Assembly: GCA_963836405.1 (NCBI GenBank)
Contig: CAWIJL010000019.1
Location: 121,379 to 161,378, forward strand
DNA from: an uncultured Solibacteraceae bacterium
Lineage (GTDB): Bacteria; Acidobacteriota; Terriglobia; Bryobacterales; Bryobacteraceae
Reading direction: 5' to 3'
Length of the DNA stretch: 40,000 bases
Both the position numbers and the translations under genes were made by a program. Of the stretch, positions 27,488-40,000 are shown in pieces. Under the pieces are notes generated by a model that saw only the letters and a program-made list of their open reading frames with translations, had not been told where the DNA came from and did not search any database. The stretch's first letter is position 1, and the number at the start of each line of letters is the position of its first letter.

Positions 27488-27820
27488 TTACTTCTTTACT
27501 TCGGTCGAGGCCAGGCTGGACACGGCGCTACGCGCCACCTGCATCTTTATATTGTCCGGTTTCACGCGCAAGACCAGGGTGTCGTCGGCCTCGATGGCCA
27601 CGATGGTCCCGATAATTCCTCCGCTGGTCACCACCACATTGCCGTTCTGCAAGCCGGCCAGCATCTTCTGCTGCTGCTTGCGCTGGCGCTGCATGGGCAT
27701 GAAAAGCAGGAAATAGAAGATCCCAAAGATGAGCACGATGGGAAGGAATCCCAGCCAGGAACTGGACGGCGATTGCAGCAAGTACAGGTTGAGAATCACG
27801 TTTTGGCCAATGGGGGTCAC
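27488..27820 (-). CDS. yajC: Preprotein translocase subunit YajC
   Basis: Single TM helix followed by [14 protein letters not shown] and [19 protein letters not shown] motifs. GTG 27820 is preceded by GGAGG and overlaps the tgt stop (GTGA). Confidence 0.8.
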
Positions 27821-28957
27821 TCGGCCTCCAACGGGGCAGAGCGCACACACTTCAAGTATTCCGGGAATGAATCCGATATTATAGCGTGCCTAATCTCACG
27901 CATGATGTCAAGGTACCGCCGGATGTTGTGTCGTGTCGCCAGCACCGCGTACAAAATCTCCCCGGACTGGAACAGGTGACGAAGGTATGCTCGGGAGTAC
28001 TTGCTGCAGGTATAACACTGGCAGGCCGGGTCGACGGGGCGGGGGTCGTCGCGGTAGCGGGCGTGCTTGATGATGAGGCGGCCCTGGGAGGTGAACAGGT
28101 AGCCGTTGCGGGCGTTGCGGGTGGGCAGGACGCAATCCATCATGTCGATGCCGCGCGCCACGTACTCGGGGAGTTCGTGGGGCATTCCGACTCCCATGGC
28201 GTAGCGGGGCCGGTCAGCGCGGCAGCAGATCGGCGGAAACTTCGGCCATTTCGAGGCTCAAAGGGCGCGGTTCGCCGACCGAGAGGCCGCCGATCGGCAT
28301 AGCCGTCGGCATCGAGATCGACCAGGGCCGGGCGCATTCGCGGCGCAGGTCGGCGAACATGGAGCCCTGCACGATGGGGAACAGCGCGTGCCGGGTTTCC
28401 ATGGCGGCCAGCCGTTGGCGGTGGTGGGCGGCCGCCTGGCGAGCCCAGCGGACGGTCCGCTGCATGCTGGCGCGGGCGTACTCATGGCTCACCGGGTACT
28501 CGGGGCACTCGTCGAGCGCCATCAGGATGTCGCTGCCGTAGGCAAGCTGGGCGTCCACGGTGGATTCGGGGGTAAAGGTGTGGAGGTCGCCATCGAGGTG
28601 GGAGTGAAAGACCACGCCCTGGTCGGTGATTTTGCGCAGGCCGCTGAGGCTGAACACCTGGAAGCCGCCCGAATCGGTGAGGATGGCGTTCGGCCAGGAC
28701 ATGAAGCGGTGGAGGCCGCCCAGTTTGCGAATCAGCTCGTGGCCGGGGCGCAGGAAGAGGTGGTAGGTGTTGGCCAGGAGAATGCGGACGCCGAGCTCCT
28801 CGTCGAGGTCGCGCTGGGTGAGGCCCTTGACGGTGGCCTGGGTGCCGACGGGCATGAAGACGGGCGTTTCGATGGTTCCGTGGGGGGTGTGCAGCAGTCC
28901 GGCACGGGCGCGGGTCTGGCGGCACTCGGCCACCACTTCGAAAGAGATCTGCGGCAA
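27817..28957 (-). pseudogene. tgt: tRNA-guanine transglycosylase (queuine tRNA-ribosyltransferase), interrupted by three frameshifts as sequenced
   Basis: ORF 28214..29095 carries ..TPVFMPVGTQATVKG..TDSGGFQVFS..LFPIVQGSMFADLRRECA. ORF 28140..28337, in a second frame, carries the expected ALVDLDADGYA. The first frame resumes with IGGLSVGEP and hits TGA after SADLLPR. ORF 27817..28197, in the third frame, carries (RY)[33 protein letters not shown]. Total length 1141 nt is not a multiple of 3. The likely start is TTG 28957 (MPQISFEVV..). Confidence 0.85.
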
Positions 28958-29079
28958 GCTTCGATTGTAATGACATTTCAGCGGGACGCGGCGGCGGGCG
29001 GGGCAAACGTCGGCGGGCGGGATGCGTCCAATCCTCATCGCGCGCGCGGGGCTTCCGGCGCGGGGCGGTAGACTGGACG

Positions 29080-30156
29080 ATGATGGAAAGCACACGACGG
29101 ACGTTCGTAACCTCCCTGGCGGGGGCTGGAGTGCTGGCGGCCGCGCCGCAGGCGAAGAAAAAGATCCTGATTCTGGGCGGCACCGGCTACCTGGGACCGG
29201 CCACCGTGGAAGCGGCCCGGGCGCGGGGCCACGAGATCACCCTTTTCAATCGCGGCAAGACACGGCCGGACCTTTTCAAGGACCTGGAGATCCTGCACGG
29301 CGACCGCGACCCGCTTAAGGACGAGGGCCTGAAGGCGCTCGAAGGCCGCAAGTGGGACACGGCGATCGACAACTCGGGCTACTTCCCGCGCCTGGTGAAC
29401 GCGTCCGCCCGGCTGCTTGCTCCCAATGTCCGGCAGTACATCTTCATTTCCTCGATTTCGGCTTACGCGGACAACGTCACCGAGAACCAGGACGAGACCG
29501 GGCGGCTGGCGACGACGAAAGAGCCGGAGGTGGAGAAGATCACCGATGGGAGTTACGGTCCGTTGAAGGCGCTTTGCGAGAAGGCGTCGCAGGAAGCGTT
29601 CCCGGAACGGGCGGCGGTGGTGCGGCCGGGGTACATTGTGGGGCCGGACGATCCCAGCGGGCGGTTCACGTACTGGCCGGTGCGGGTGGACCGGGGTGGG
29701 GAGGTGCTGGCGCCGGGCGCGCCTGCCGACCCGCTTCAGATCATCGACGTGCGCGACCTGGGCGCCTGGCTGATAACGCTGGCGGAGCAGCAGACCAGCG
29801 GGGTATTCAATGCCTGCGGCCCGAAGGACCGGCTGGCGTGGGGCGATGTGCTGCAAGCCTGCCGCAAGGCCACCAAGACGGAAAGCAAGCTGACCTGGGT
29901 GCCCGCCGAATGGTTGGCGAAACACGACGGAGAAGTATTCCCCATTTGGGCGCCGTACCGCACGGAAACGCGGGGATTCCATACCTGGAAGAACGACCGG
30001 GCGGTCAAGGCGGGACTCAAGTTCCGTCCGGTGCAGCAGACCGTTTCCGACACCCTGGCGTGGTACAAATCGCAGAGCGAGCGCACGAAGCTGGCGGGTC
30101 CGGCGGCGGAAAAAGAGGCGGAACTGCTGGCGCAGTGGAAGAACGGCACGAAATAA
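29080..30156 (+). CDS. NAD(P)-dependent epimerase/dehydratase-family (SDR) oxidoreductase with a Tat-type signal
   Basis: MMESTRRTFVTSLAGAGVLAAAPQA (twin-Arg motif) followed by the Rossmann motif ILILGGTGYLG. Confidence 0.8.
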   Translation: MMESTRRTFVTSLAGAGVLAAAPQAKKKILILGGTGYLGPATVEAARARGHEITLFNRGKTRPDLFKDLEILHGDRDPLKDEGLKALEGRKWDTAIDNSGYFPRLVNASARLLAPNVRQYIFISSISAYADNVTENQDETGRLATTKEPEVEKITDGSYGPLKALCEKASQEAFPERAAVVRPGYIVGPDDPSGRFTYWPVRVDRGGEVLAPGAPADPLQIIDVRDLGAWLITLAEQQTSGVFNACGPKDRLAWGDVLQACRKATKTESKLTWVPAEWLAKHDGEVFPIWAPYRTETRGFHTWKNDRAVKAGLKFRPVQQTVSDTLAWYKSQSERTKLAGPAAEKEAELLAQWKNGTK

Positions 30157-32827: not shown

Positions 32828-34087
32828 TTAGGTCTCAGGCAGCGGCGGGGCGGCCTTCGGGAGAATGCCCAGCTCGCGGTAGATGGGCCGGATTTCGCGG
32901 CGGATCCCCGGCAATCTCATCGAGAACCAGAGGGCGCCTGCGAGGCACAGGATGCCGCCGCAGACGATCGTGGCGGGCGCGCCGATTCTGCCCGCGACGA
33001 AGCCGGCGGCGAGGCTGCCGAAGGGCGCCAGTCCTTGAAAGGCCATCAAGTAATAGGCCATCACCCGTCCGCGCTTGTCCTCGTCAACGATGGTTTGGAC
33101 GATGGTGTTGCTGGATGCCATGTGGCGCATCATGCCGAAACCGGCGGCGGCGACGGCGGCGAGCGAAAGCGGGAGCAGCCGCGAGAACCCGAGCCCGATC
33201 AGCCCCACGCCGAAGAGGCCGGCCGACCAGACGATGACTCTGCCCAGACCCAGAACGCTCCTGCGCATGGCCAGCGCGACGGCTCCGGCGAGCGCACCGA
33301 GACCCGCCGCCGCCATCAGAAACCCTAGCGTGTGCGGGCCTCCGCCCAGCACCGAAGTGGCGAAGATCGGCATGAGAACCGTGTAGGGCATGCCGACGAC
33401 GCTCACCAGCGTGAGGAACAGGAGGACCGAGCGAATGGCGCGCGATTCGGTGACATATCGCCAGCCTTCCTGCATCTCTTGGACGAGGTTGCGCGAGGCC
33501 GGACGGGGCTTGGCCGGAGGACGGCGCATGGCCAGCAGCGACGCGATCACGGCCACGTAACTGATACCGTCGATGAGGAAGCAGTAGCCCTCGCCCACGG
33601 CGGCGATGAGCATTCCCGCCACGGCCGGCCCCACCAGCCGCGCCGCGTTGACCATGGAGGAATTCAGCGCGATGGCATTACCAAGGTCCTCGCGCTGCTC
33701 GATCATCTCGACCACGAACGACTGGCGGGCCGGCATGTCGAAGGCATTGATCGCGCCCTGGGCCAGCGCCAGCAGCAGGACCTCCGCGATGGTAATCACA
33801 TGGGCGAGCGCCAGGGCCGCCAGCGCGAGCGACTGCAGCATGGACAGAATCTGCGTGATCACGAGCGTGCGATGGCGGTCCCAGCGGTCCACCCAAACGC
33901 CGGCGATGGGGGTCAGGAACAGAATCGGGATCTGGCTGGCGAAGCTGGTCAACCCGAGCAGAAACGGAGAATCGGTCAGGCGGTAAACCAGCCAGCTCAT
34001 CGCGACGCGCGTCATCCAGGTGCCGATGAGGGAGACGATCTGGCCTTCGAAGAAGAGGCGGTAATTGCGCGAGTGGAGCGCCCGCAA
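32828..34087 (-). CDS. MFS transporter (efflux-type, 12 TM)
   Basis: RNYRLFFEGQIVSLIGTWM.., GVWVDRWDRHR loop motif, hydrophobic throughout. TTG start. Confidence 0.85.
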   Translation of the reverse strand: MRALHSRNYRLFFEGQIVSLIGTWMTRVAMSWLVYRLTDSPFLLGLTSFASQIPILFLTPIAGVWVDRWDRHRTLVITQILSMLQSLALAALALAHVITIAEVLLLALAQGAINAFDMPARQSFVVEMIEQREDLGNAIALNSSMVNAARLVGPAVAGMLIAAVGEGYCFLIDGISYVAVIASLLAMRRPPAKPRPASRNLVQEMQEGWRYVTESRAIRSVLLFLTLVSVVGMPYTVLMPIFATSVLGGGPHTLGFLMAAAGLGALAGAVALAMRRSVLGLGRVIVWSAGLFGVGLIGLGFSRLLPLSLAAVAAAGFGMMRHMASSNTIVQTIVDEDKRGRVMAYYLMAFQGLAPFGSLAAGFVAGRIGAPATIVCGGILCLAGALWFSMRLPGIRREIRPIYRELGILPKAAPPLPET

Positions 34088-34172
34088 CAGCAGGCGCCCG
34101 GATGCCAGGATGGAGCGTTCTTTCGGCAGTTAAGGGTCCGGTGCAATCGGAGTGCCGCGGTGGCGTGGCGTA

Positions 34173-34625
34173 CTATGTACCGACGCTGAGCACCAGGATT
34201 GCGAACGCCGCGATCAGGGCACAGGTGCGCAACCAGTGGTAGAGATCCCACCGATGCTGCTGCGCCGCCCAGTTCCCGGGGAGCGATTGCGGGGTCCACG
34301 TTTTGATTCTGTTATTGATTGGAACCAGACCGGCGATGGAAAAGAGGATGGCGCCGACCTGGATGACGAACGCAATCAGGGCCAGCCGCCATGCGGGCTC
34401 GTTCAGATGAGCGAACGGCAGCAACAGGAGCAAATTGAGCAAAGTGGACGCCGCCATCCAGAACGGCATTACACGGCCAAGTAACGCCGCAAGGGACGAT
34501 CGAAGGGGTATGCGCACGGCCAGGGACTGCCGGTTCAGCATGGGATGGGCGAAAGCCGCCACGTTTAATTCGCTTCCGCACATGGCGCCGAGGACAACCA
34601 CGGCCAATATCTGGAGCTCTGTCAC
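34173..34625 (-). CDS. DUF1772 (anthrone-oxygenase-like) membrane protein
   Basis: 150 aa with four TM helices. ..GSELNVAAFAHPML.. and ..WDLYHWLRT.. are typical of DUF1772. Family assignment is from memory. Confidence 0.65.
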   Translation of the reverse strand: MTELQILAVVVLGAMCGSELNVAAFAHPMLNRQSLAVRIPLRSSLAALLGRVMPFWMAASTLLNLLLLLPFAHLNEPAWRLALIAFVIQVGAILFSIAGLVPINNRIKTWTPQSLPGNWAAQQHRWDLYHWLRTCALIAAFAILVLSVGT

Positions 34626-34693
34626 GGGAACCTCCCTCAGCTATGGATGCCGTTCACCTGCCGATCGGATCAGGCTTGGTAGTACCAGTTCTT

Positions 34694-34723
34694 TTGTTGG
34701 TTTGTCTCAAAATCTGACATACT
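34694..34723 (+). promoter_or_regulatory. Putative promoter of the cNMP/Fe-S/FHA/cytochrome cluster
   Basis: TTGTTG (34694-34699), 18 nt, then CATACT (34718-34723), in the AT-richer divergent intergenic region. ATG 34748 is preceded by GGACTGGGG. Confidence 0.3.
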
Positions 34724-34747
34724 GAACCAAATCGCACAGGACTGGGG

Positions 34748-36728
34748 ATGGCAAAAGACGTAATCCTCGCGGCGGACCTGGGGGGGAGCCTGCTTTCTGC
34801 CGAGGAGCTGGCGGCGATTCCGGACTTTGCCGGGATCCGGAAGGAGATCTGGGACAAGTTCCCCGGCGCGATCGCCCGGAAGGAGTATCGCGCGGGCGAA
34901 ATGCTGATGCGGGAGGGCGAGAACGGTACCACGGCCTTCTACATCCTTTCTGGGACGATCGAATCTACTCATTCAGAACCCGGTATCGCGGGCGGAGAGC
35001 CGGCGCTCGAGCGGAGGCGGGTGGCTGTTCGGCAGCCTCTCCAAGATCACCAACTACATGAAAGGCGTTCCGGCAGCGGCCGAGGCGGCGAGCGGGGGCG
35101 CGCACGCACATCCCCATCGACGCGCCGGTGGACCTGCCGATGGACGATCCGATCGCCGAGGTATACGCGGGCGACCTGATCGGCGAACTGGCGGCGCTGG
35201 CGGCGACTCAAGCAGGAGCGGCTCAAGCGGCCCAAGTTCTATCCGCGCTCGGCGACGGCGCGGGCGAAGACGGACGTGGTGGTGCTTGGAGATGCTGCCG
35301 AACATCCTGAACAACGTCCTTTACAATGCGCCGGCCTTCAAGGAGAAGCTGAACCGGAACTACCGGACGCCGCGCGCTCGACAGCCACCTGCGCTCGGTT
35401 CCCGACGTTTCGCAACCTGAGCCCGGAGTTTCTGAACGCGCTGCGGGAACGGGTGGAACTGGTGGACGTGGCGCCGGGGCAGGTGATCTGCCGGCAGGGC
35501 GAGATCGCCGATTCGTTCTACCTGATCCGCATGGGATTCGTGAAGGTCTCGCAGATTTTCCCGGGCGGCGAACTGGTGCTGACTTATCTTTCGCGCGGCT
35601 CGTATTTCGGGGAGATGGGCCTGCTGCCGCCGGTATTTCCGCGTGCGCGCGCGGGGACGGCAAGGCGGGACAGATGGCGGAGGCGGCGGTTTCGAGCGAA
35701 GATCTGCCGGTGGGCCGCGCTCCGGACAGCGGCGGCTGGCGGTGCCGTGGGACGAGTACATTTCGCGCGAGCATGCCGCGCTGCGGGTGGAGGGCAAGCA
35801 GCTTCGCGTGTTACCGCTGCCTACGGGCAAGAATCCGATCACGTTCCGGATGCAAGCCGGTGGAGAGCGCGCTGGTCTCGCCCGGGCGAAAGCTTTCGTC
35901 ATCGGCGAAACGACCTTCGAAGTGATGGAGGATCCGCTGCAGGCCGGCCGGCGCACCGCCACCTGCACGGCGGTGGATTTCGTGCAATTGGTGCGCATCA
36001 AGGCCGACGATTTCGCCGCGATGCTGGGCGGAGTTTCCGGAGGTGGCGGCCGGCATCACGGAGGTCGGCGCGGGCGCGGCGGCAGATGGATCTGCGAACT
36101 GCTCGGGCGCGTGCAGCAGGCCTCGCTTTCGAGCTTTCTCGAACAGGAGCTGATGCAGGGGCAGAACCTGCTGCTGCTCGACCTGGACAAGTGCACGCGC
36201 TGCGACGAGTGCGTGAAGGCGTGCGTCGCCACGCACGACGACGGCGTCACGCGGCTGGTGCGCGACGGTCTGCGCTTCGAGAACTACCTGGTGGCGACCA
36301 GTTGCCGCGCCTGCATGGATCCGCTGTGCATGACGCGCTGTCCGGTGGGTTCGATCCGGCGCAAGGCCACGCTGGACATCGTGATCGAGGACTGGTGCAT
36401 CGGCTGCGGCAACTGCGCGACCGATTGCCCGTACGGCAACATCAACGTGGTGCAGGTACAGGATCCGCGGCCGCAAGCAGAAGGCCGAGCCGCGGCCGAA
36501 AGCGGTGGTGTGCGATCTGTGCGCCGAATTTCCCGGAGCCCAACTGCGTGCGCGCCTGCCCGCACGACGCCGCCATCCGGGTGGAGCCGAAGACGTTCTT
36601 CGCGCGCGACCTGGCGGGCATGCAACTGCCGTGCCCGTACCGGCGGCCGCGCCGTCTGCCCCGGCCGGACGCGTCGGCGGAAGCGGTCGAGACGCGGATT
36701 TACTCCAATGTGGACGAAGTGCTCGAAC
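34748..36728 (+). pseudogene. Protein with two cyclic-nucleotide-binding domains and a 4x[4Fe-4S] ferredoxin domain; reading frame broken about 10 or more times as sequenced
   Basis: CNB1 is pieced from three frames: YRAGEMLMREGENGTTAFYILSGTI / WLFGSLSKITNYMKG / IPIDAPVDLPMDDPIAEVYAGDLIGELAAL / KFYPRSATARAKTDVVVL / EMLPNILNNVLYNAPAFKEKLNRNYR. CNB2: FRNLSPEFLNALRERVELVDVAPGQVICRQGEIADSFYLIRMGFVKVS..SRGSYFGEMGLL ... RTATCTAVDFVQLVRIKADDF. Fe-S motifs: CTRCDECVKAC, CRACMDPLCMTRCP, CIGCGNCATDCP, CDLCAEFPEPNCVRACP. The 3' boundary is uncertain, and this gene may be fused to the next one. Confidence 0.7.
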
Positions 36729-38013
36729 ATGCTGCCGCGGCTGAAGATCGATCTCCGGCCCGCGCGCCGGCGCCTTCCTCCAGTTGCGGTACCCTTCGAC
36801 GACATTCGGACGCGGGCGCGGGCAACGACTACCGCTTTGCCGACGACACGCTGATGTCGCGCGCCCAGGCGGCGATCGTGTGCGAGGGCGGCCGCTTCAT
36901 GCTGCGGGACCTCAACTCCACCAACGGCACGCTGGTCAACGGCAATCCGGTGACGGAGATGGAACTGCGGCCGGGCGACGTGATGGAGATGGGCGAGATG
37001 CAGCTCGAATTCTATCGGGGGCCAGGTGCAATGATCCTGGACCGGCGGACAATCGCGGGCGGCGGCGCTCTCGGCAACTGCGGCGCTGGTGCCTGTCACG
37101 CTCGGCCTACGCCGCGTATGCGGCGGCATCGCCGCAACGGGCGCGCGGGGCGGCTCGTTCATGGGCCTGTTTTTCGCGGCCGCTGGGGACCGGCATCGAT
37201 CGTGTTCGAGTGCCTGCTGGGACTCCGCAAGCGGTATCCGGCCTCGCCGCTGGGCCGGGTGAGGACCTGGCTGCGGGCGCACACTGTGGCTGGGGCTGCT
37301 GGCGTTCCTGCTGATCCTGATGCACTCCGGTTTCCGCTGGGGCGCGGGCCTGGCCGGGCTGCTGATGTGGCTGTTCGCCGCGATCGTCGGGAGCGGAATT
37401 TTCGGGGTGGCGCTGCAGAACTACATTCCGAGGCGAATGACGGAACTGGTGGCGCGCGAAACGATGTTCGAGCAGATCCCGGCCGTGATCCGCGGGCTGC
37501 GCGCGGAAGCCGGCGGAGCGGGTGGAATTCGTCACGGCGGACCTGGGGCTGGAGGAAGAAGAGGCGGAGGAATTCGTCCGCGCCGGCGGGGTGAAGCAGT
37601 ACTTCGATCCGGCGCAGAAGAAGAGCGCCGCGGAAAAGGTGCAGGCGGCAGTCGAGAAGCGCAAGAGTGCGCCGCAGATGGAGGTGGAGGAGAATGCGCG
37701 GCGGGCGCTGCGGGCTCACTTTGTGGAGGAGATCCGGCCGTTTCTGGCGGACCGTCCGGGCGCGTATTGCCGGCAACTGTTTGCTTCGCGGGCGCGGGTG
37801 GCGGCCTATTTCTCGCATCTCCGCACGATCATGCCGGTGGCTGCGCACAACGTGCTGCACGATCTCGAAGAGATCTGCGAAGAACGGCGGCAACTGCTGG
37901 TGCAGCGTCGCCTGCACCTGTGGCTGCACGGGTGGCTGCTGGTGCACGTGCCGGTTTCGTTCGCCTTCCTGGTGCTGATTGCGGCGCACGCGGTGCTGGC
38001 GTTGAGGTACTGA
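36729..38013 (+). pseudogene. FHA domain plus polytopic membrane domain with histidines in its helices; frame-broken, and possibly the C-terminal part of the preceding gene
   Basis: FHA pieces: MLPRLKID / LSGPRAGAFLQLRYPSTTFGRGRG / NDYRFADDTLMSRAQAAIVCEGGRFMLRDLNSTNGTLVNGNPVTEMELRPGDVMEMGEMQLEF. Then TM segments: ..RTWLRAH/LWLGLLAFLLILMHSGFRWGAGLAGLLMWLFAAIVGSGIFGVALQNY.. and ..RRLHLWLHGWLLVHVPVSFAFLVLIAAHAVLALRY*. Stop at 38011-38013. Confidence 0.6.
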
Positions 38014-38014
38014 T

Positions 38015-39295
38015 ATGGCGAAAGAGGAAAAACCTTTCGAATATCAGCGCCGCATTCGCGACACCAAAGGCCTGGCGCAGCGGCTGGACCTGAACTACCT
38101 GCGGCGTGCAGGGGCGATGGCTGTTCTGCGCAGCCGGCTCACGTGGGGAGTAACGGCGCTGGCGGTGCTCGCCTGCGTGCCGCTGGTGCTTGGGCGTAGG
38201 TGGGCGGAAGGCGCTGACGAGCGGGCCGGTTTCGCGGGCGCACGCGTTGCTGGCCGACCGCTGCGAAGCGTGCCATGCGCAGGCGTTTGCGGGAGTAGCG
38301 CGACGCGAGCTGCCGCAAATGCCACGATTCCGGCGCGCACACGATGCATGCCCGCTCGACGCCGCGGTGCGCGCAATGCCATGCGGAGCACCGGGGCGAG
38401 ACCCTGCTGGTGCGGGTGGCGGACGGCAACTGCACGGCGTGCCATGCCAACCTGACGGCGCACGCGAACGGCGTCGACCATCAAAGGGCGGGAGATCACG
38501 GCATTCCGCGCGGGCCGGCATTCCGAATTTGCGGCGGTTTCGGCGCGGGACACGCGGCCCTTGAAGCTGAACCACGCGATACACATGCCTTCGCAGCCGA
38601 AGACGCTCCGCGGGATGAAGCTGCCGATGCAGTGCACGGACTGCCATGCGACGGACCGCGGGTCGCGGGAAGGCGCGCTGCTGCCGGTCACCTTCGAGAG
38701 GAACTGCAAGTCGTGCCACGCGCGGGAACTGGAGTTCGATGTGGATCGCGTGCTGGGGGCGGGGGCCGCTCCGGCGCCTCACGCGAAGGATGCCAACGCG
38801 ATCCGGGAGTACGTGGCGAAGGCGTACCGCGATGCGCTGGCGGCGGATCCGGGAATGGCGCGGCGGCCGGTGGGCAACGACTTGGCGGCGCAGCCCGGCG
38901 CGTCGGCGTGGCTGGCGCGCGTGACGAACGATGCGGAGCGGTACCTGTTCGATCGGAAATGCGGTTACTGCCACGAGGGCGATCCGGCGGCGGCGAAAGC
39001 GGGGCGGATCGCCGGACGATATCCGGAGGGCGTCCGGTGGCTGCCGCACACGGAGTTCGAGCACCGCACCCACCGCCCGGTAGCCTGCGAATCGTGCCAC
39101 ACCGCGGCGCGCGCGAGCGTGAAGACGGCGGACGTTCTGGTTCCTGGCATGAAGACATGTCTTCCGTGTCACGGCCGGTCCGACGCCGGTATGGACCGCT
39201 GTTCCGAGTGCCACCTCTATCACGACCGGAAGCTCGAAAAAGAGCCCGTGCGACAACCCACGGAGAGGCTGATTGCGGTGGGGGTGGCGCGTTGA
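38015..39295 (+). pseudogene. Membrane-anchored multihaem c-type cytochrome (10 CxxCH motifs); three frameshifts in the first 480 nt as sequenced
   Basis: N-terminal anchor LTWGVTALAVLACVPLVLG. Haem motifs: CEACH (38262, frame 0); CRKCH, CAQCH and CTACH (frame 1); CTDCH, CKSCH, CGYCH, CESCH, CLPCH and CSECH (frame 2, ORF 38561..39295). The ATG lies 1 nt after the upstream stop. Confidence 0.75.
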
Positions 39296-40000
39296 TCTAC
39301 GCCGGAATGACCGATCCGGGCCGCAGGCGGGCGAACAACGAGGACGCGTTTGCGATCGAGGCGTCGCTGCACGCGGCGGTCCTGGCGGATGGGATGGGGG
39401 GCGCGAACTGCGGGGAGGTGGCCTCCGCCCTGACGGTGGAGGAGGCCCTGAAATATCTGCGATGTCCGGAGCCGGGGCTGACGCTGGAGGAGATTTGCAA
39501 AGAGGCGGTGCGCGCGGCCAACCTGCGGGTGTTCGCGGAATCGGCCGGGCAGCGGGACTGCCGGGGAATGGGATCGACGGTGGTGCTGGCGCTGTGGCGG
39601 GGCGCGGAACTGGTGATCGGGAATGCGGGAGACAGCCGCGCGTACCTGCTGCGGGGGGGCGTGCTGCGGCAGCTTTCCTACGACCAGAACTTCGCCAACG
39701 AATTGCGGACCAAGCTGGGCTTCACGCGAAGAACGGCTGCGCCACATGCCGAACCGCAACGTGCTCACGATGGCGGTGGGAATTTACGAACAGGTGCTGG
39801 TGCGCACGCAGGTGGAAAGGCTGGCGTGCGGCGACCGGATCCTTTTGTGCTCGGACGGGTTGCACGGGCCGGTATCCGAGGACACGATCTGGCAGATTCT
39901 GATGGGCGGGACGACGGCACGGGAGAAGGTGGAAATGCTGGTGCGGTGCGCCAACGAACGCGGCGGGCCGGACAACATTACGGCGGTCCTGCTGGAGTAT
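39292..40000 (+). pseudogene. PP2C-family Ser/Thr phosphatase; one frameshift near 39727; 3' end outside the window
   Basis: TTG 39292 overlaps the cytochrome stop (GTTGA). (M)IYAGMTDPGRRRANNEDAF..LADGMGG..MGSTVVLAL..IGNAGDSRAYLL. After an extra base near 39727 the frame shifts to ..EERLRHMPNRNVLTMAVG..LLCSDGLHGPV..ANERGGPDNITAVLLEY. Confidence 0.75.

What the first reader, a model, noticed from the sequence alone, without database searches (positions are those of the whole stretch)
34748..40000. Candidate undescribed redox / cyclic-nucleotide / phospho-threonine signalling module
Four tightly packed, same-strand genes share one putative promoter. The junctions are a 1-nt gap at 38013/38015 and a GTTGA start-stop overlap at 39292-39295.

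The cluster combines parts that do not normally sit together:
- two CNB (cNMP-binding) domains fused to a DmsB/NrfC/HybA-type four-cluster ferredoxin domain, with no HTH;
- a canonical FHA phospho-Thr reader attached to a polytopic membrane domain;
- a membrane-anchored cytochrome c with 10 CxxCH motifs;
- a PP2C phosphatase.

Read together, this looks like a trans-membrane electron-transfer chain (cytoplasmic Fe-S, a membrane domain, a periplasmic multihaem cytochrome). Its assembly or activity would be gated by cNMP binding and by Ser/Thr phosphorylation. I know of no characterised system with this composition. A Hanks-type kinase is the expected missing partner just downstream of the window.
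Basis: partly seen in the sequence, partly recalled or inferred. Interest (0 to 1): 0.8.

Follow-up and report, generated by a model that had tools for sequence, protein, structure and literature searches.

The report
Signal-gated cytochrome electron conduit, frameshifted copy
The stretch holds four genes of a conserved but uncharacterised acidobacterial cluster that looks like an iron-sulfur and haem wire carrying electrons across the cell membrane, controlled by cyclic-nucleotide and phospho-threonine sensors; in this copy every gene is broken by about thirty stray single-base insertions, most likely sequence errors.

Summary
The domain inventory is real, but no gene is intact. About 30 window-specific frame-breaking insertions interrupt 34748-40000. 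After correction there are no in-frame stops, and gene 1 keeps 256 of 258 family-invariant residues. This points to sequence error rather than decay.

The gene boundaries differ from the finding. Gene 1 (34748-37034) is one ~754-aa protein:
- two PKA-R-like CNB domains, the second with an FHA-like domain nested in its phosphate-binding cassette;
- a 16-Cys HycB-type four-[4Fe-4S] module;
- the canonical FHA.

Gene 2 (37031-38013) is a separate DUF4405-like membrane protein with two H-x13-H pairs. Gene 3 is an anchored decahaem cytochrome c. Gene 4 is a PP2C, cut by the window end.

The g1-g2-g3 order is kept in about 42 Bryobacterales loci.

The core trio recurs in other Acidobacteriota and in a Phycisphaerae MAG. 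There it sits next to NuoEF-like NADH-dehydrogenase genes, nucleotide cyclases and kinases.

Best reading: a cytoplasm-to-periplasm electron conduit gated by cNMP and Thr phosphorylation. This is inferred, not shown. No paper or curated family describes it. It is a new variant of known transmembrane redox complexes.

The parts
34626..34747 (+). 122-nt intergenic region between the divergent DUF1772/anthrone-oxygenase-like gene (34173-34625, minus strand) and gene 1. This is the presumed promoter and 5' UTR.
   Evidence: ORF list; Pfam on 34173-34625; no sigma-70-like site; no Rfam match.
34748..37034 (+). Gene 1: a ~754-aa cytoplasmic protein with the order CNB1, CNB2 (with nested FHA-like domain), four [4Fe-4S], C-terminal FHA. 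About 22 frame shifts break it in this window.
   Evidence: Orthologues are 747-778 aa with up to 83% identity to the hand-stitched query. Frameshift-aware alignment gives 86% identity to P0001 and no in-frame stop. Pfam on the corrected protein. 256 of 258 family-invariant residues are kept.
34835..35290 (+). CNB1: a cNMP-binding domain. Its phosphate-binding cassette keeps Glu (IGELAAL) and Arg-Ser-Ala (PRSATARA), but is lengthened by about 11 residues compared with relative P0244.
   Evidence: Pfam cNMP_binding, 2 stretches; invariant G144 E145 ... R165 S166 A167; comparison with P0244; Foldseek top hits are tandem CNB domains of PKA/PKG regulatory subunits.
35408..36030 (+). CNB2, split into FGEMGLL (ending ~35640) and RRTATCTA (from 35949) by the nested domain.
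   Evidence: Pfam cNMP_binding best stretch 238-292; invariant F284 G285 E286, and R399 T400 A401; three-frame translation.
35641..35948 (+). FHA-like beta-sandwich domain (~105 aa) nested inside the phosphate-binding cassette of CNB2. It keeps the GR and SxxH motifs (VGRAP, ISREHA).
   Evidence: Pfam is below threshold: Yop-YscD_cpl 28.6 bits (cut-off 33.2) and FHA 18.8 bits (cut-off 20.7). hhalign against the C-terminal FHA gives probability 90% and E 1.4e-6, with GR and SRxH aligned. AF2 pLDDT is 80-92 for residues 295-395. In relative P0244 a PilZ domain occupies the same site.
36192..36565 (+). 16-Cys four-[4Fe-4S] polyferredoxin module. The motifs are CTRCDECVKAC, CRACMDPLCMTRCP, CIGCGNCATDCP and CDLCAEFPEPNCVRACP. 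There is no signal peptide, so it is cytoplasmic.
   Evidence: Pfam Fer4 families. Best solved relatives are HDCR HycB4 (7qv7_B, 3.4e-15), an aldehyde-oxidoreductase Fe-S subunit (8c0z_C) and HycB (7z0s_B). All 16 Cys are invariant.
36800..36995 (+). C-terminal canonical FHA domain (FGRGAGNDYRF...SRAQ...NSTNGT).
   Evidence: Pfam FHA 67.5 bits, residues 679-743; GarA/OdhI-like, 4e-12; AF2 pLDDT 75-91.
37031..38013 (+). Gene 2: a ~324-aa membrane protein with 5 predicted TM helices and a ~155-aa charged loop. It has two H-x13-H pairs, with His codons at 37280, 37323, 37945 and 37987. It is a probable di-haem b cytochrome. Six frame shifts break it.
   Evidence: Orthologues are 322 aa and all annotated 'hypothetical'. 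DUF4405 scores 29.1 bits (cut-off 26.7) in the S. usitatus orthologue. 21 of 23 family members match DUF4405 at E<=1. The corrected window protein itself gives no hit at E<=0.01. H81, H95, H301 and H315 are invariant. The His pairs are conserved in distant homologues. Frameshift map.
38015..39295 (+). Gene 3: a ~425-aa decahaem cytochrome c. It has a cytoplasmic N-tail carrying a conserved DTKGLAQRL motif (38060-38086), one TM helix (~38138-38200), and 10 CxxCH motifs (38262-39214). Three frame shifts break it.
   Evidence: Frameshift-aware alignment and motif count; Pfam Cytochrome_C7 46.8 bits and Cytochrom_c3_2 41.2 bits; the N-tail motif is conserved in 43 of 45 loci.
39292..40000 (+). Gene 4: a PP2C Ser/Thr phosphatase. 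The window end cuts it at 236 of about 240-248 codons. The catalytic motifs NED, DGMGG, GDSR, SDGL and DN are present. It has one frame shift near 39725.
   Evidence: Pfam PP2C_2 58.2 bits; the orthologue scores 208 bits against the NCBIfam Stp1/IreP model (cut-off 230); frameshift map.
34964..39725 (.). About 30 window-specific frame-breaking insertions, mostly of a single base.
- They involve all four bases, and only 9 of 25 lie next to an identical base.
- 26 lie between 34964 and 37515. The other 3 are at 38297, 38477 and 39725.
   Evidence: The GC3 frame plot shows dense frame switching only in 34748-40000. The G7 run at 34781-34787 is in frame.

Best explanation
The window end carries the first four genes of a conserved ~8-gene Bryobacterales (Acidobacteriota) cluster.

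**What the three core genes look like (shown).** Genes 1-3 are translationally coupled (ATGA overlap, 1-nt gap) and look like subunits of one complex:
- a cytoplasmic HycB-type chain of four [4Fe-4S] clusters;
- a di-haem b membrane protein of the DUF4405 / ferric-reductase kind;
- a membrane-anchored periplasmic decahaem cytochrome c.

**How it most likely works (inferred).**
- The trio passes electrons between a cytoplasmic donor and the periplasm. Many relatives carry NADH-dehydrogenase-like modules, so the donor there is probably NADH.
- In orthologous loci the path continues to a c554-like cytochrome, a probable outer-membrane protein and a ~1200-aa LVIVD/multihaem protein.
- The Fe-S subunit carries its own regulators: a PKA-R-like tandem CNB pair and two FHA domains, one of them nested in the cNMP phosphate-binding cassette.
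- The cluster encodes a PP2C and, just beyond the window, a membrane-anchored Hanks kinase.
- The likely control is twofold. cNMP binding changes the conformation of the Fe-S subunit. Thr phosphorylation creates or removes an FHA docking site. That site may be the conserved DTKxxAQRL tail of the cytochrome, the cytoplasmic loop of gene 2, or the kinase itself. Together these would switch electron flow post-translationally.

**State of this copy.** All four genes are broken by about 30 random +1 insertions. I read these as sequence or assembly error (about 0.75), not as decay.
For: **Composition.** Pfam, PDB and NCBIfam results. Tandem-CNB fold similarity to PKA/PKG regulatory subunits.

**Single-protein architecture of gene 1.**

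**Haem b.**
- DUF4405-like match plus invariant H81-x13-H95 and H301-x13-H315.
- Experimental haem b binding by a DUF4405 protein (PMC11334425).

**Synteny.**
- g1-g2-g3 are adjacent in every locus long enough to show it.
- PP2C is present in about 31 loci and the kinase in about 34.
- The c554-like and 661-aa genes are usually adjacent.

**Electron-wire reading.** Relatives of gene 1 are fused to NuoG-N-terminal or NuoE+F+G modules (P0257, P0286, P0376), or sit next to a NuoEF fusion with homologues of g2 and g3 (L048; L050 and L051).

**cNMP reading.**
- The Glu and Arg-Ser/Thr-Ala of both phosphate-binding cassettes are invariant.
- A CHASE2-cyclase lies next to the trio in L051, and an FHA-GAF-cyclase in L050.
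- An NDH-2/CNB fusion is present in L047.

**Phospho-Thr reading.**
- FHA-bearing versions co-occur with kinases in two architectures: Bryobacterales, and L050 with a 1673-aa Pkinase.
- FHA-less versions (L047, L048, L051) have no kinase or PP2C in the stretch seen.
- A Thr motif is conserved in the g3 tail.

**Error reading.**
- 256 of 258 invariant residues are kept.
- There are no in-frame stops.
- The +1 bias is 27 to 5.
- The inserted bases are random.
- A further +1 insertion lies in tgt.
Against: - No experiment exists on any member. No paper was found.
- Complex formation is inferred only from gene order. No multimer model could be made.
- The AF2 models of the Fe-S part (pLDDT <50) and of gene 2 (mean 48.9) are unusable.
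- The corrected window gene 2 does not itself reach DUF4405 at E<=0.01.
- The Bryobacterales cluster has no NuoEF-like gene, so its cytoplasmic donor or acceptor and the direction of flow are unknown.
- Both phosphate-binding cassettes carry insertions, so cNMP binding is not assured.
- The nested FHA is below Pfam thresholds.
- A subclade lacks the PP2C (L030, L032, L033, L036-L039), and a few loci lack an adjacent kinase.
- The insertions are concentrated in the cluster: 26 in 2.55 kb against 1 found in the other 34.7 kb. Error alone does not explain this.
Confidence: 0.55

Rival explanations
1. The cluster is a real, recently inactivated pseudogene cluster in this genome. The ~30 insertions are true mutations and the system is dead in this organism.
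For: - Frame shifts are dense in 34964-37515. They are nearly absent in the 34.7 kb upstream, where long genes such as aconitase (883 aa), RelA/SpoT (741 aa) and a PpsA-like gene (842 aa) are intact.
- The onset lies close to the start of the cluster.
Against: - After correction there is no in-frame stop.
- 256 of 258 family-invariant residues are kept, and identity to the nearest orthologue is 86%.
- Events are almost only +1 insertions of random bases, whereas bacterial decay is expected to include deletions and substitutions (general knowledge).
- An isolated +1 insertion also splits tgt, a housekeeping gene.
Confidence: 0.2
2. Gene 1 is not a conduit subunit but a redox and second-messenger sensor scaffold. 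Its Fe-S clusters report the redox state of the neighbouring cytochromes. The output is FHA-mediated recruitment of phosphoproteins in the kinase/phosphatase pathway. Bulk electron flow would not pass through it.
For: - Four sensor or reader domains sit in one protein with no catalytic or DNA-binding output.
- It is tightly associated with a kinase and a PP2C.
- No donor module is found in the Bryobacterales cluster.
Against: - The Fe-S module is a complete 16-Cys, four-cluster HycB-type wire. Its closest solved relatives are electron-transfer subunits.
- Relatives are fused in line with the NuoE/F/G NADH-oxidising chain. That arrangement makes sense for throughput, not for sensing.
- The trio is conserved where no kinase is present.
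Confidence: 0.2
3. The membrane protein and decahaem cytochrome form a quinol-dependent inner-membrane module, like Geobacter CbcL or ImcH. Electrons would come from the menaquinol pool. The Fe-S protein would be a peripheral regulator or a second entry point.
For: - b-type plus multihaem c inner-membrane modules that oxidise quinol are the known route into porin-cytochrome conduits (general knowledge of CbcL, ImcH and CymA).
- Gene 3 has weak similarity to DmsE-family, QrcA and ActA cytochromes.
Against: - No NapC/NirT, NrfD or HydC/FdnI family match was found for g2 or g3.
- g2 resembles the DUF4405 / MsrQ / ferric-reductase type. These are trans-membrane electron carriers between a cytoplasmic donor and an outside acceptor (PMC11334425).
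- The cytoplasmic Fe-S subunit is always present.
Confidence: 0.15

Closest known systems
Tmc / Hmc / DsrMKJOP-type transmembrane redox complexes of sulfate reducers
   Same: The overall logic matches: a periplasmic multihaem cytochrome c, a membrane b-type subunit and a cytoplasmic Fe-S subunit, encoded side by side, linking periplasmic and cytoplasmic redox chemistry (general knowledge).
   Different: - There is no family membership. Scores are far below the curated cut-offs: HmcB 24.6 against 420, DsrO 42.4 against 200, QrcA 19.9 against 180.
- The membrane subunit is DUF4405-like, not NarI- or NrfD-like.
- The Fe-S subunit is HycB-like, not HdrD-like.
- None of those complexes has CNB or FHA domains or a dedicated kinase/phosphatase.
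Porin-cytochrome extracellular electron-transfer conduits (MtrCAB; Geobacter Pcc/Ext with CbcL/ImcH)
   Same: The whole orthologous cluster contains an inner-membrane module, a periplasmic multihaem cytochrome, a 661-aa signal-peptide protein ending in ...VRMVF, and a very large multihaem/LVIVD protein. In relatives MtrC/MtrF-like domains are detected.
   Different: - No Mtr or Ext family cut-off is met: DmsE-family decahaem 27.6 against 192, ExtN 23.3 against 200.
- The putative porin has no Pfam, NCBIfam or PDB match.
- Electron entry is from a cytoplasmic Fe-S protein rather than a quinol dehydrogenase.
- These parts lie outside the window.
HycB / HydN / HDCR polyferredoxin subunits
   Same: A 16-Cys, four-[4Fe-4S] cytoplasmic electron-transfer module. 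These are the best solved relatives: 7qv7_B at 3.4e-15, 7z0s_B.
   Different: Here the module is a ~180-aa part of a 754-aa protein, flanked by CNB and FHA domains. The HydN equivalog scores 55.8 against a cut-off of 260.
DUF4405 / MsrQ / PepSY-like / FezC membrane cytochromes (PMC11334425)
   Same: A small polytopic membrane protein with four conserved His on two helices. A DUF4405 member was shown to bind haem b and was proposed to carry electrons across the membrane.
   Different: - The sequence match is only borderline.
- It has 5 predicted helices, with a ~155-aa cytoplasmic insert before the last helix.
- It partners with an Fe-S protein and a multihaem cytochrome, not with flavinylated proteins or ApbE.
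PKA/PKG regulatory subunits (tandem CNB-A/B)
   Same: The N-terminal half has the tandem-CNB fold. Foldseek top hits are 5j3u, 4x6r_B and 4z07 at E about 1e-12. The Glu and Arg of the phosphate-binding cassette are conserved.
   Different: Both phosphate-binding cassettes carry insertions, and in CNB2 the insertion is a whole FHA-like domain. The regulated partner is an Fe-S module in the same chain, not a kinase catalytic subunit.
FHA / Hanks-kinase / PP2C modules (Mycobacterium GarA/OdhI with PknG/PknB/PstP; T6SS Fha1-PpkA-PppA)
   Same: A canonical FHA (GarA-like, 4e-12) is encoded with a PP2C and a membrane-anchored Hanks kinase. Phospho-Thr-dependent docking that switches an enzyme or machine on or off is the established mode of action (general knowledge).
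   Different: The target would be a respiratory-type electron-transfer complex. The FHA is fused to the Fe-S subunit, and a second FHA-like domain is nested in a CNB domain.
cAMP-CRP control of anaerobic respiration and extracellular electron transfer in Shewanella; the specialised Ndh2 route of Listeria flavin-based electron transfer
   Same: These link a cyclic nucleotide, or a dedicated NADH dehydrogenase, with electron export (general knowledge). In L047 an NDH-2 is fused to a CNB domain next to the trio.
   Different: Those controls are transcriptional (CRP has an HTH). Here there is no HTH, and the CNB domains are built into the electron-transfer protein itself.

Membership tests
Cyclic nucleotide-binding domain (PF00027) | Profile match above the gathering score | tested here: met
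   95.8 bits against 27.5 on the corrected window protein, in 2 stretches; 99.7 bits on the first stitched version.
Cyclic nucleotide-binding domain (PF00027) | Phosphate-binding cassette with conserved Glu and Arg-[ST]-Ala | tested here: met
   CNB1 has IGELAAL...PRSATARA. CNB2 has FGEMGLL...[insert]...RRTATCTA. These residues are invariant or nearly invariant in 20 orthologues. Cassette length is atypical: about +11 residues and about +105 residues.
Cyclic nucleotide-binding domain (PF00027) | Binds cAMP or cGMP | not testable with these tools
   Needs ITC or fluorescence binding assays on purified protein.
FHA domain (PF00498), C-terminal copy | Profile match above the gathering score, with the GR, SxxH and NG motifs | tested here: met
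   67.5 bits against 20.7. GR and NG are present. The SxxH motif reads SRAQ in the window and SRxH in the family consensus.
FHA domain, copy nested in CNB2 | Profile match above the gathering score | tested here: not met
   FHA 18.8 bits against 20.7; Yop-YscD_cpl 28.6 bits against 33.2. However, hhalign to the C-terminal FHA gives 90% probability and E 1.4e-6, with GR and SRxH aligned, and the beta fold is modelled confidently.
Four-cluster ferredoxins of the HycB/HydN/DmsB/NrfC/HybA superfamily | Four Cys motifs (16 Cys) for four [4Fe-4S] clusters | tested here: met
   All four motifs can be read in the window. All Cys are invariant. Pfam Fer4_9, Fer4_7, Fer4 and Fer4_10 are above their cut-offs.
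DmsB / NrfC / HybA (periplasmic, Tat-exported members) or HydN equivalogs | Reaches the curated equivalog score; has an N-terminal Tat signal | tested here: not met
   DmsB 43.9 against 214; NrfC 30.1 against 378; HybA 33.7 against 263; HydN 55.8 against 260. The module is internal to a cytoplasmic multidomain protein, so there is no signal peptide.
DUF4405 (PF14358) haem-b membrane cytochromes | Profile match above the gathering score | tested here: inconclusive
   - The S. usitatus orthologue scores 29.1 bits against a cut-off of 26.7.
- P0122 scores 24.7 bits.
- 21 of 23 orthologues match at E<=1, the best at 1.8e-5.
- The corrected window protein gives no hit at E<=0.01.
DUF4405 (PF14358) haem-b membrane cytochromes | Four conserved His on two TM helices able to ligate two haems b | tested here: met
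   H81-x13-H95 and H301-x13-H315 are invariant. They are present in the window and in distant homologues. Haem binding itself cannot be tested here.
Multihaem cytochrome c | Multiple CxxCH motifs, export signal or anchor, and a multihaem profile match | tested here: met
   10 CxxCH motifs and an N-terminal TM helix. Cytochrome_C7 46.8 bits against 24.8; Cytochrom_c3_2 41.2 bits against 25.
DmsE/MtrA decahaem family (TIGR03508); NapC/NirT/CymA quinol dehydrogenases | Reaches the curated family score | tested here: not met
   TIGR03508 scores 27.6 against 192. No NapC/NirT-type family is listed in Pfam or NCBIfam.
PP2C phosphatase (PF13672 / PF00481) | Profile match and metal-binding Asp motifs | tested here: met
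   PP2C_2 58.2 bits against 24; PP2C 38.3 bits against 20.3. The motifs NED, DGMGG, GDSR, SDGL and DN can be read. The Stp1/IreP equivalog scores 208 against 230, so that is not met.
Hanks-type Ser/Thr kinase as cluster partner | A Pkinase gene directly downstream | tested here: inconclusive
   The window ends inside the PP2C gene. In orthologous loci the next gene is a Pkinase: 160.8 bits, adjacent in about 34 loci.
Tmc/Hmc/Dsr/Qrc complexes | Subunits reach the curated family scores | tested here: not met
   HmcB 24.6 against 420; DsrO 42.4 against 200; QrcA 19.9 against 180.

The most novel reading that the evidence does not exclude
A family of respiratory-type electron wires in which second-messenger and phospho-protein receptors are built into the Fe-S subunit itself.
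- Tandem CNB domains carry an exchangeable reader domain nested in the cNMP phosphate-binding cassette: FHA-like in Bryobacterales, PilZ in a relative.
- These domains would gate electron flow post-translationally, from cytoplasmic NADH or ferredoxin through a di-haem b protein to multihaem cytochromes outside the cytoplasm.
- This would be a direct, quinone-independent export route switched by cAMP/cGMP, c-di-GMP or a dedicated kinase/phosphatase pair.
Probability: 0.35. Interest if true: 0.8.

Novelty: new variant of a known kind. Interest (0 to 1): 0.62.

Why it matters
Control of bacterial respiration and extracellular electron transfer is known mostly at the level of transcription. A cyclic-nucleotide receptor and phospho-threonine readers fused in line with an Fe-S wire, plus a dedicated kinase and phosphatase, would be a fast, post-translational switch on electron export.

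The organisms concerned are abundant soil Acidobacteria whose multihaem cytochromes have no assigned function (PMC8100337).

The wider family is large and unnamed: 712 50%-identity clusters at E<=1e-30. Its links to NuoEF-like modules and nucleotide cyclases give a concrete hypothesis. It can be tested in a cultivated strain, Solibacter usitatus Ellin6076, which carries an intact orthologue (P0032).

The nested FHA/PilZ swap inside a CNB phosphate-binding cassette is also an unusual piece of domain architecture.

For this window specifically, the lesson is practical. The locus as deposited cannot be annotated by ORF calling. It would be missed or labelled as pseudogenes.

Tried and rejected
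- **AF2 model of gene 2.** The 23-sequence alignment gave mean pLDDT 48.9 and was unusable, so no fold search was run on it.
- **AF2 model of gene 1.** Mean pLDDT was 57, and the Fe-S part and linkers were below 50. Only the CNB, nested and C-terminal FHA parts are trustworthy. The Foldseek search therefore reports only tandem-CNB hits.
- **PDB sequence searches.** The gene 2 profile and the 661-aa downstream protein found nothing meaningful. Gene 3 gave only a weak ActA hit at E 0.0036.
- **NCBIfam.** No curated family reaches its cut-off for g1, g2, g3, g6 or g7.
- **Sigma-70 promoter scan.** No sites were found. Terminator-like sites are at background level.
- **Rfam on the whole window.** No match.
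- **Repeat search on 34000-40000.** Only short chance matches.
- **Seven literature searches** on combinations of the domains, Solibacter, DUF4405 and LVIVD. No description of the system was found. The one useful paper is on DUF4405.
- **Source genome.** It was not among the 45 fetched genome loci; the best nucleotide identity was 75%.
- **Homopolymer-type sequencing error.** Rejected as the cause of the frame shifts. A G7 run is in frame, and only 9 of 25 inserted bases sit next to an identical base.
- **Plain tblastn.** It was too coarse to map the frame shifts. I replaced it with a custom protein-to-DNA alignment that allows frame shifts.
- **Cluster-member look-up.** It gave no organism names for the wider family.

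Full report
**1. What is in the sequence**

The last 5.25 kb of the window (about 67% G+C) is coding on the + strand, but no ORF spans any of the four proposed genes. The recognisable peptide pieces jump between all three frames. On hand-stitched translations Pfam finds cNMP_binding, several 4Fe-4S families, FHA, multihaem-cytochrome families and PP2C. No HTH is found.

A search with the stitched first gene returned hundreds of intact orthologues of 747-778 aa, with up to 83% identity. Where named, they come from Bryobacteraceae or Solibacter, including Solibacter usitatus Ellin6076. All of them contain CNB, Fer4 and FHA in one chain.

**2. The frame shifts**

I wrote a protein-to-DNA alignment that allows frame shifts.
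- Gene 1 has 22 frame shifts. Nineteen are +1 and three are +2 or -1. Four different guide proteins give the same result.
- Gene 2 has 6, gene 3 has 3 and gene 4 has 1.
- After correction there is no in-frame stop. Gene 1 is 86% identical to its nearest orthologue and keeps 256 of the 258 residues that are invariant among 20 orthologues.

A nucleotide alignment with ten orthologous loci shows 25 single-base window-only insertions, two of two bases and one of four bases. All four bases are involved, and only 9 of 25 lie next to an identical base. A G7 run at 34781-34787 is in frame.

Frame switching is confined to 34748-40000. The rest of the window has uniform 1-2 kb coding frames and intact housekeeping genes. 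The one exception is tgt, which a +1 insertion near 28216 splits.

The pattern is random +1 noise with no sign of relaxed selection. I read it as sequence or assembly error (about 0.75) rather than decay. I cannot explain why 26 of the events fall in 34964-37515 without the reads.

**3. Corrected gene map**

- **Gene 1, 34748-37034.** CNB1; CNB2; a 16-Cys four-[4Fe-4S] module (36192-36565); a linker; a canonical FHA (about 36800-36995).
- **Gene 2, 37031-38013** (ATGA overlap with gene 1). A 322/324-aa membrane protein.
- **Gene 3, 38015-39295** (1-nt gap). A cytoplasmic tail, one TM helix and ten CxxCH motifs.
- **Gene 4, 39292 to the window end** (TTGA overlap). A PP2C with all catalytic motifs.

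However, the FHA belongs to the Fe-S protein, not to the membrane protein.

**4. Details of the proteins**

*CNB domains.* The N-terminal half folds like the tandem CNB-A/B of PKA/PKG regulatory subunits (Foldseek E about 1e-12). Both phosphate-binding cassettes keep the Glu and the Arg-Ser/Thr-Ala.

*Nested domain.* In CNB2 the cassette is split by a ~105-aa beta domain (35641-35948).
- It is below the Pfam thresholds for FHA (18.8 against 20.7) and for Yop-YscD_cpl (28.6 against 33.2).
- It aligns to the C-terminal FHA at 90% probability, with the GR and SRxH motifs in register.
- It is modelled with pLDDT 80-92.
- In a 44%-identical relative (P0244) a PilZ domain (52.7 bits) sits at exactly this site.

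*Fe-S module.* It is closest to the cytoplasmic polyferredoxin subunits HycB, HydN and HDCR HycB3/4.

*Gene 2.*
- Orthologues are all annotated 'hypothetical'.
- 21 of 23 match DUF4405 weakly. The S. usitatus one scores above the cut-off, but the corrected window protein does not match.
- The family has invariant H81-x13-H95 and H301-x13-H315 pairs on two TM helices. This is the spacing expected for two bis-His haems.
- A DUF4405 protein has been shown to bind haem b and was proposed as a trans-membrane electron carrier (PMC11334425).

**5. Conservation**

A scan of one genome per species found 45 loci, almost all of them Bryobacterales MAGs.
- g1-g2-g3 are adjacent in every locus long enough to tell.
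- The PP2C follows in about 31 loci and a Hanks kinase in about 34. A subclade lacks the PP2C.
- A c554-like cytochrome and a 661-aa signal-peptide protein with no known family lie downstream or divergently upstream. A ~1200-aa multihaem/LVIVD protein follows.
- The cytoplasmic tail of gene 3 carries a DTKxxAQRL motif, conserved in 43 of 45 loci. It is a candidate phospho-Thr site.

**6. The wider family**

An exhaustive profile search found 712 50%-identity clusters at E<=1e-30. They share the end of CNB2 plus the Fe-S module. Only one other cluster has the full CNB-CNB-FeS-FHA architecture.

Other members have N-terminal FHA-FHA, a NuoG-N-terminal module, or a NuoE+NuoF+NuoG-N module fused in front of CNB-FeS.

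Their loci keep the trio, with g2 homologues at E 1e-46 to 1e-78 that retain the His pairs:
- **L048.** A NuoEF fusion, a NuoG-N-CNB-FeS protein, g2, a multihaem cytochrome and a g7-like gene.
- **L051.** NuoEF, NuoG-N-CNB-FeS, g2 and a multihaem cytochrome, next to a CHASE2-nucleotide cyclase.
- **L050.** An FHA-bearing version, next to NuoEF, a 1673-aa Ser/Thr kinase and an FHA-GAF-cyclase.
- **L047 (Phycisphaerae).** The trio plus an NDH-2 fused to a CNB domain.
- **L049.** FHA-FHA-CNB-FeS with g2 and a multihaem cytochrome.

**7. How it most likely works**

*Shown:* the domain content, the gene order, and their conservation.

*Inferred:*
- g1, g2 and g3 form one complex that moves electrons between a cytoplasmic donor and the periplasm. 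In many relatives the donor is probably NADH, through NuoEF-like modules. In the full cluster the path continues towards the cell surface.
- The CNB pair changes the state of the Fe-S subunit on binding a cyclic nucleotide made by nearby or distant cyclases.
- The kinase/PP2C pair writes and erases a pThr mark read by the FHA domains. The mark may be on the g3 tail, the g2 loop or the kinase.

The direction of flow, and the donor in Bryobacterales, are unknown.

Rival readings, each less likely for the reasons given in their entries:
- the locus is truly decayed;
- g1 is a sensor scaffold rather than a wire;
- g2 and g3 are a quinol-oxidising, Cbc-like module.

**8. Comparison with what is known**

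The logic is that of Tmc/Hmc/Dsr-type transmembrane redox complexes and of porin-cytochrome conduits. No subunit reaches any curated family score. None of those systems carries CNB or FHA domains or its own kinase and phosphatase.

Seven full-text searches found no description. Sources name the proteins only generically.

**9. Verdict**

The domains and junctions are right; the gene boundaries and gene integrity are not.
- Novelty: a new variant of a known kind.
- Interest: 0.62. The score is held down because everything is inferred from sequence and because this particular copy is corrupted.

Noticed in passing
window 27817-29095 (-): The tgt gene (queuine tRNA-ribosyltransferase) is split into a 293-aa and a 126-aa ORF by a single +1 insertion near 28216-28222. 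Removing one base from 'CTGCTGCCGCGCTGACCGG' restores [14 protein letters not shown]. It is the only frame shift I found outside the cluster, and it is the same kind of event.
   Followed up: partly
P0244 (relative of gene 1), residues 279-379; compare window 35641-35948: In a 44%-identical CNB-CNB-FeS relative, a PilZ domain (52.7 bits) occupies the exact site in the CNB2 phosphate-binding cassette where the Bryobacterales proteins have the FHA-like domain. This looks like a swappable nested reader domain.
   Followed up: partly
L047 10812-12455 (Phycisphaerae MAG): A type-II NADH dehydrogenase (Pyr_redox_2 + NDH2_C) is fused to a C-terminal cNMP-binding domain. It lies directly after the CNB-FeS / g2 / multihaem / c554-like genes.
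   Followed up: no
L051 14493-16862 (-) and L050 1-788 (-), 2695-7716 (-): Signalling genes lie next to NuoEF + NuoG-N-CNB-FeS + g2 + multihaem clusters in other Acidobacteriota contigs. L051 has a CHASE2-nucleotide cyclase. L050 has an FHA-GAF-cyclase and a 1673-aa Ser/Thr kinase with TPR repeats.
   Followed up: partly
window 38060-38086; g3 N-termini in L001-L046: The cytoplasmic tail of the decahaem cytochrome carries the motif DTKxxAQRL, conserved in 43 of 45 loci. L037 and L038 have EAKT(F/Y)AQRL instead. It could be an FHA-binding pThr site or a subunit-docking motif.
   Followed up: partly
L013 14552-15571 and 17777-19657; L044; L045; L051 12190-13002: Several long-read MAG loci of the same cluster also show truncated or fragmentary matches. 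Examples: the PP2C matched only over residues 1-175, g7 cut at 622, g1 matched in pieces, and a g2 homologue that loses its C-terminal helix. Frame errors in this G+C-rich cluster may be common in such assemblies.
   Followed up: no
window 34964-37515 versus 37516-40000: Insertion density drops from about 1 per 100 nt (26 events in 2.55 kb) to about 1 per 800 nt (3 events in 2.5 kb) inside the cluster. It is about 1 per 35 kb upstream. The cause is unexplained.
   Followed up: partly
window 1-34625: The rest of the window is ordinary, intact housekeeping and transport content: GH3, an MFS sugar transporter, GH10, TonB, leucyl aminopeptidase, aconitase, MacB/FtsX x2, HlyD, a 5'-nucleotidase, RelA/SpoT, a TPR protein, ExbB, SecF, SecD, an epimerase, a PpsA-like gene, an MFS gene and a DUF1772 gene. 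No nucleotide cyclase or NuoEF-like gene is present. No Rfam family matches anywhere in the window.
   Followed up: yes
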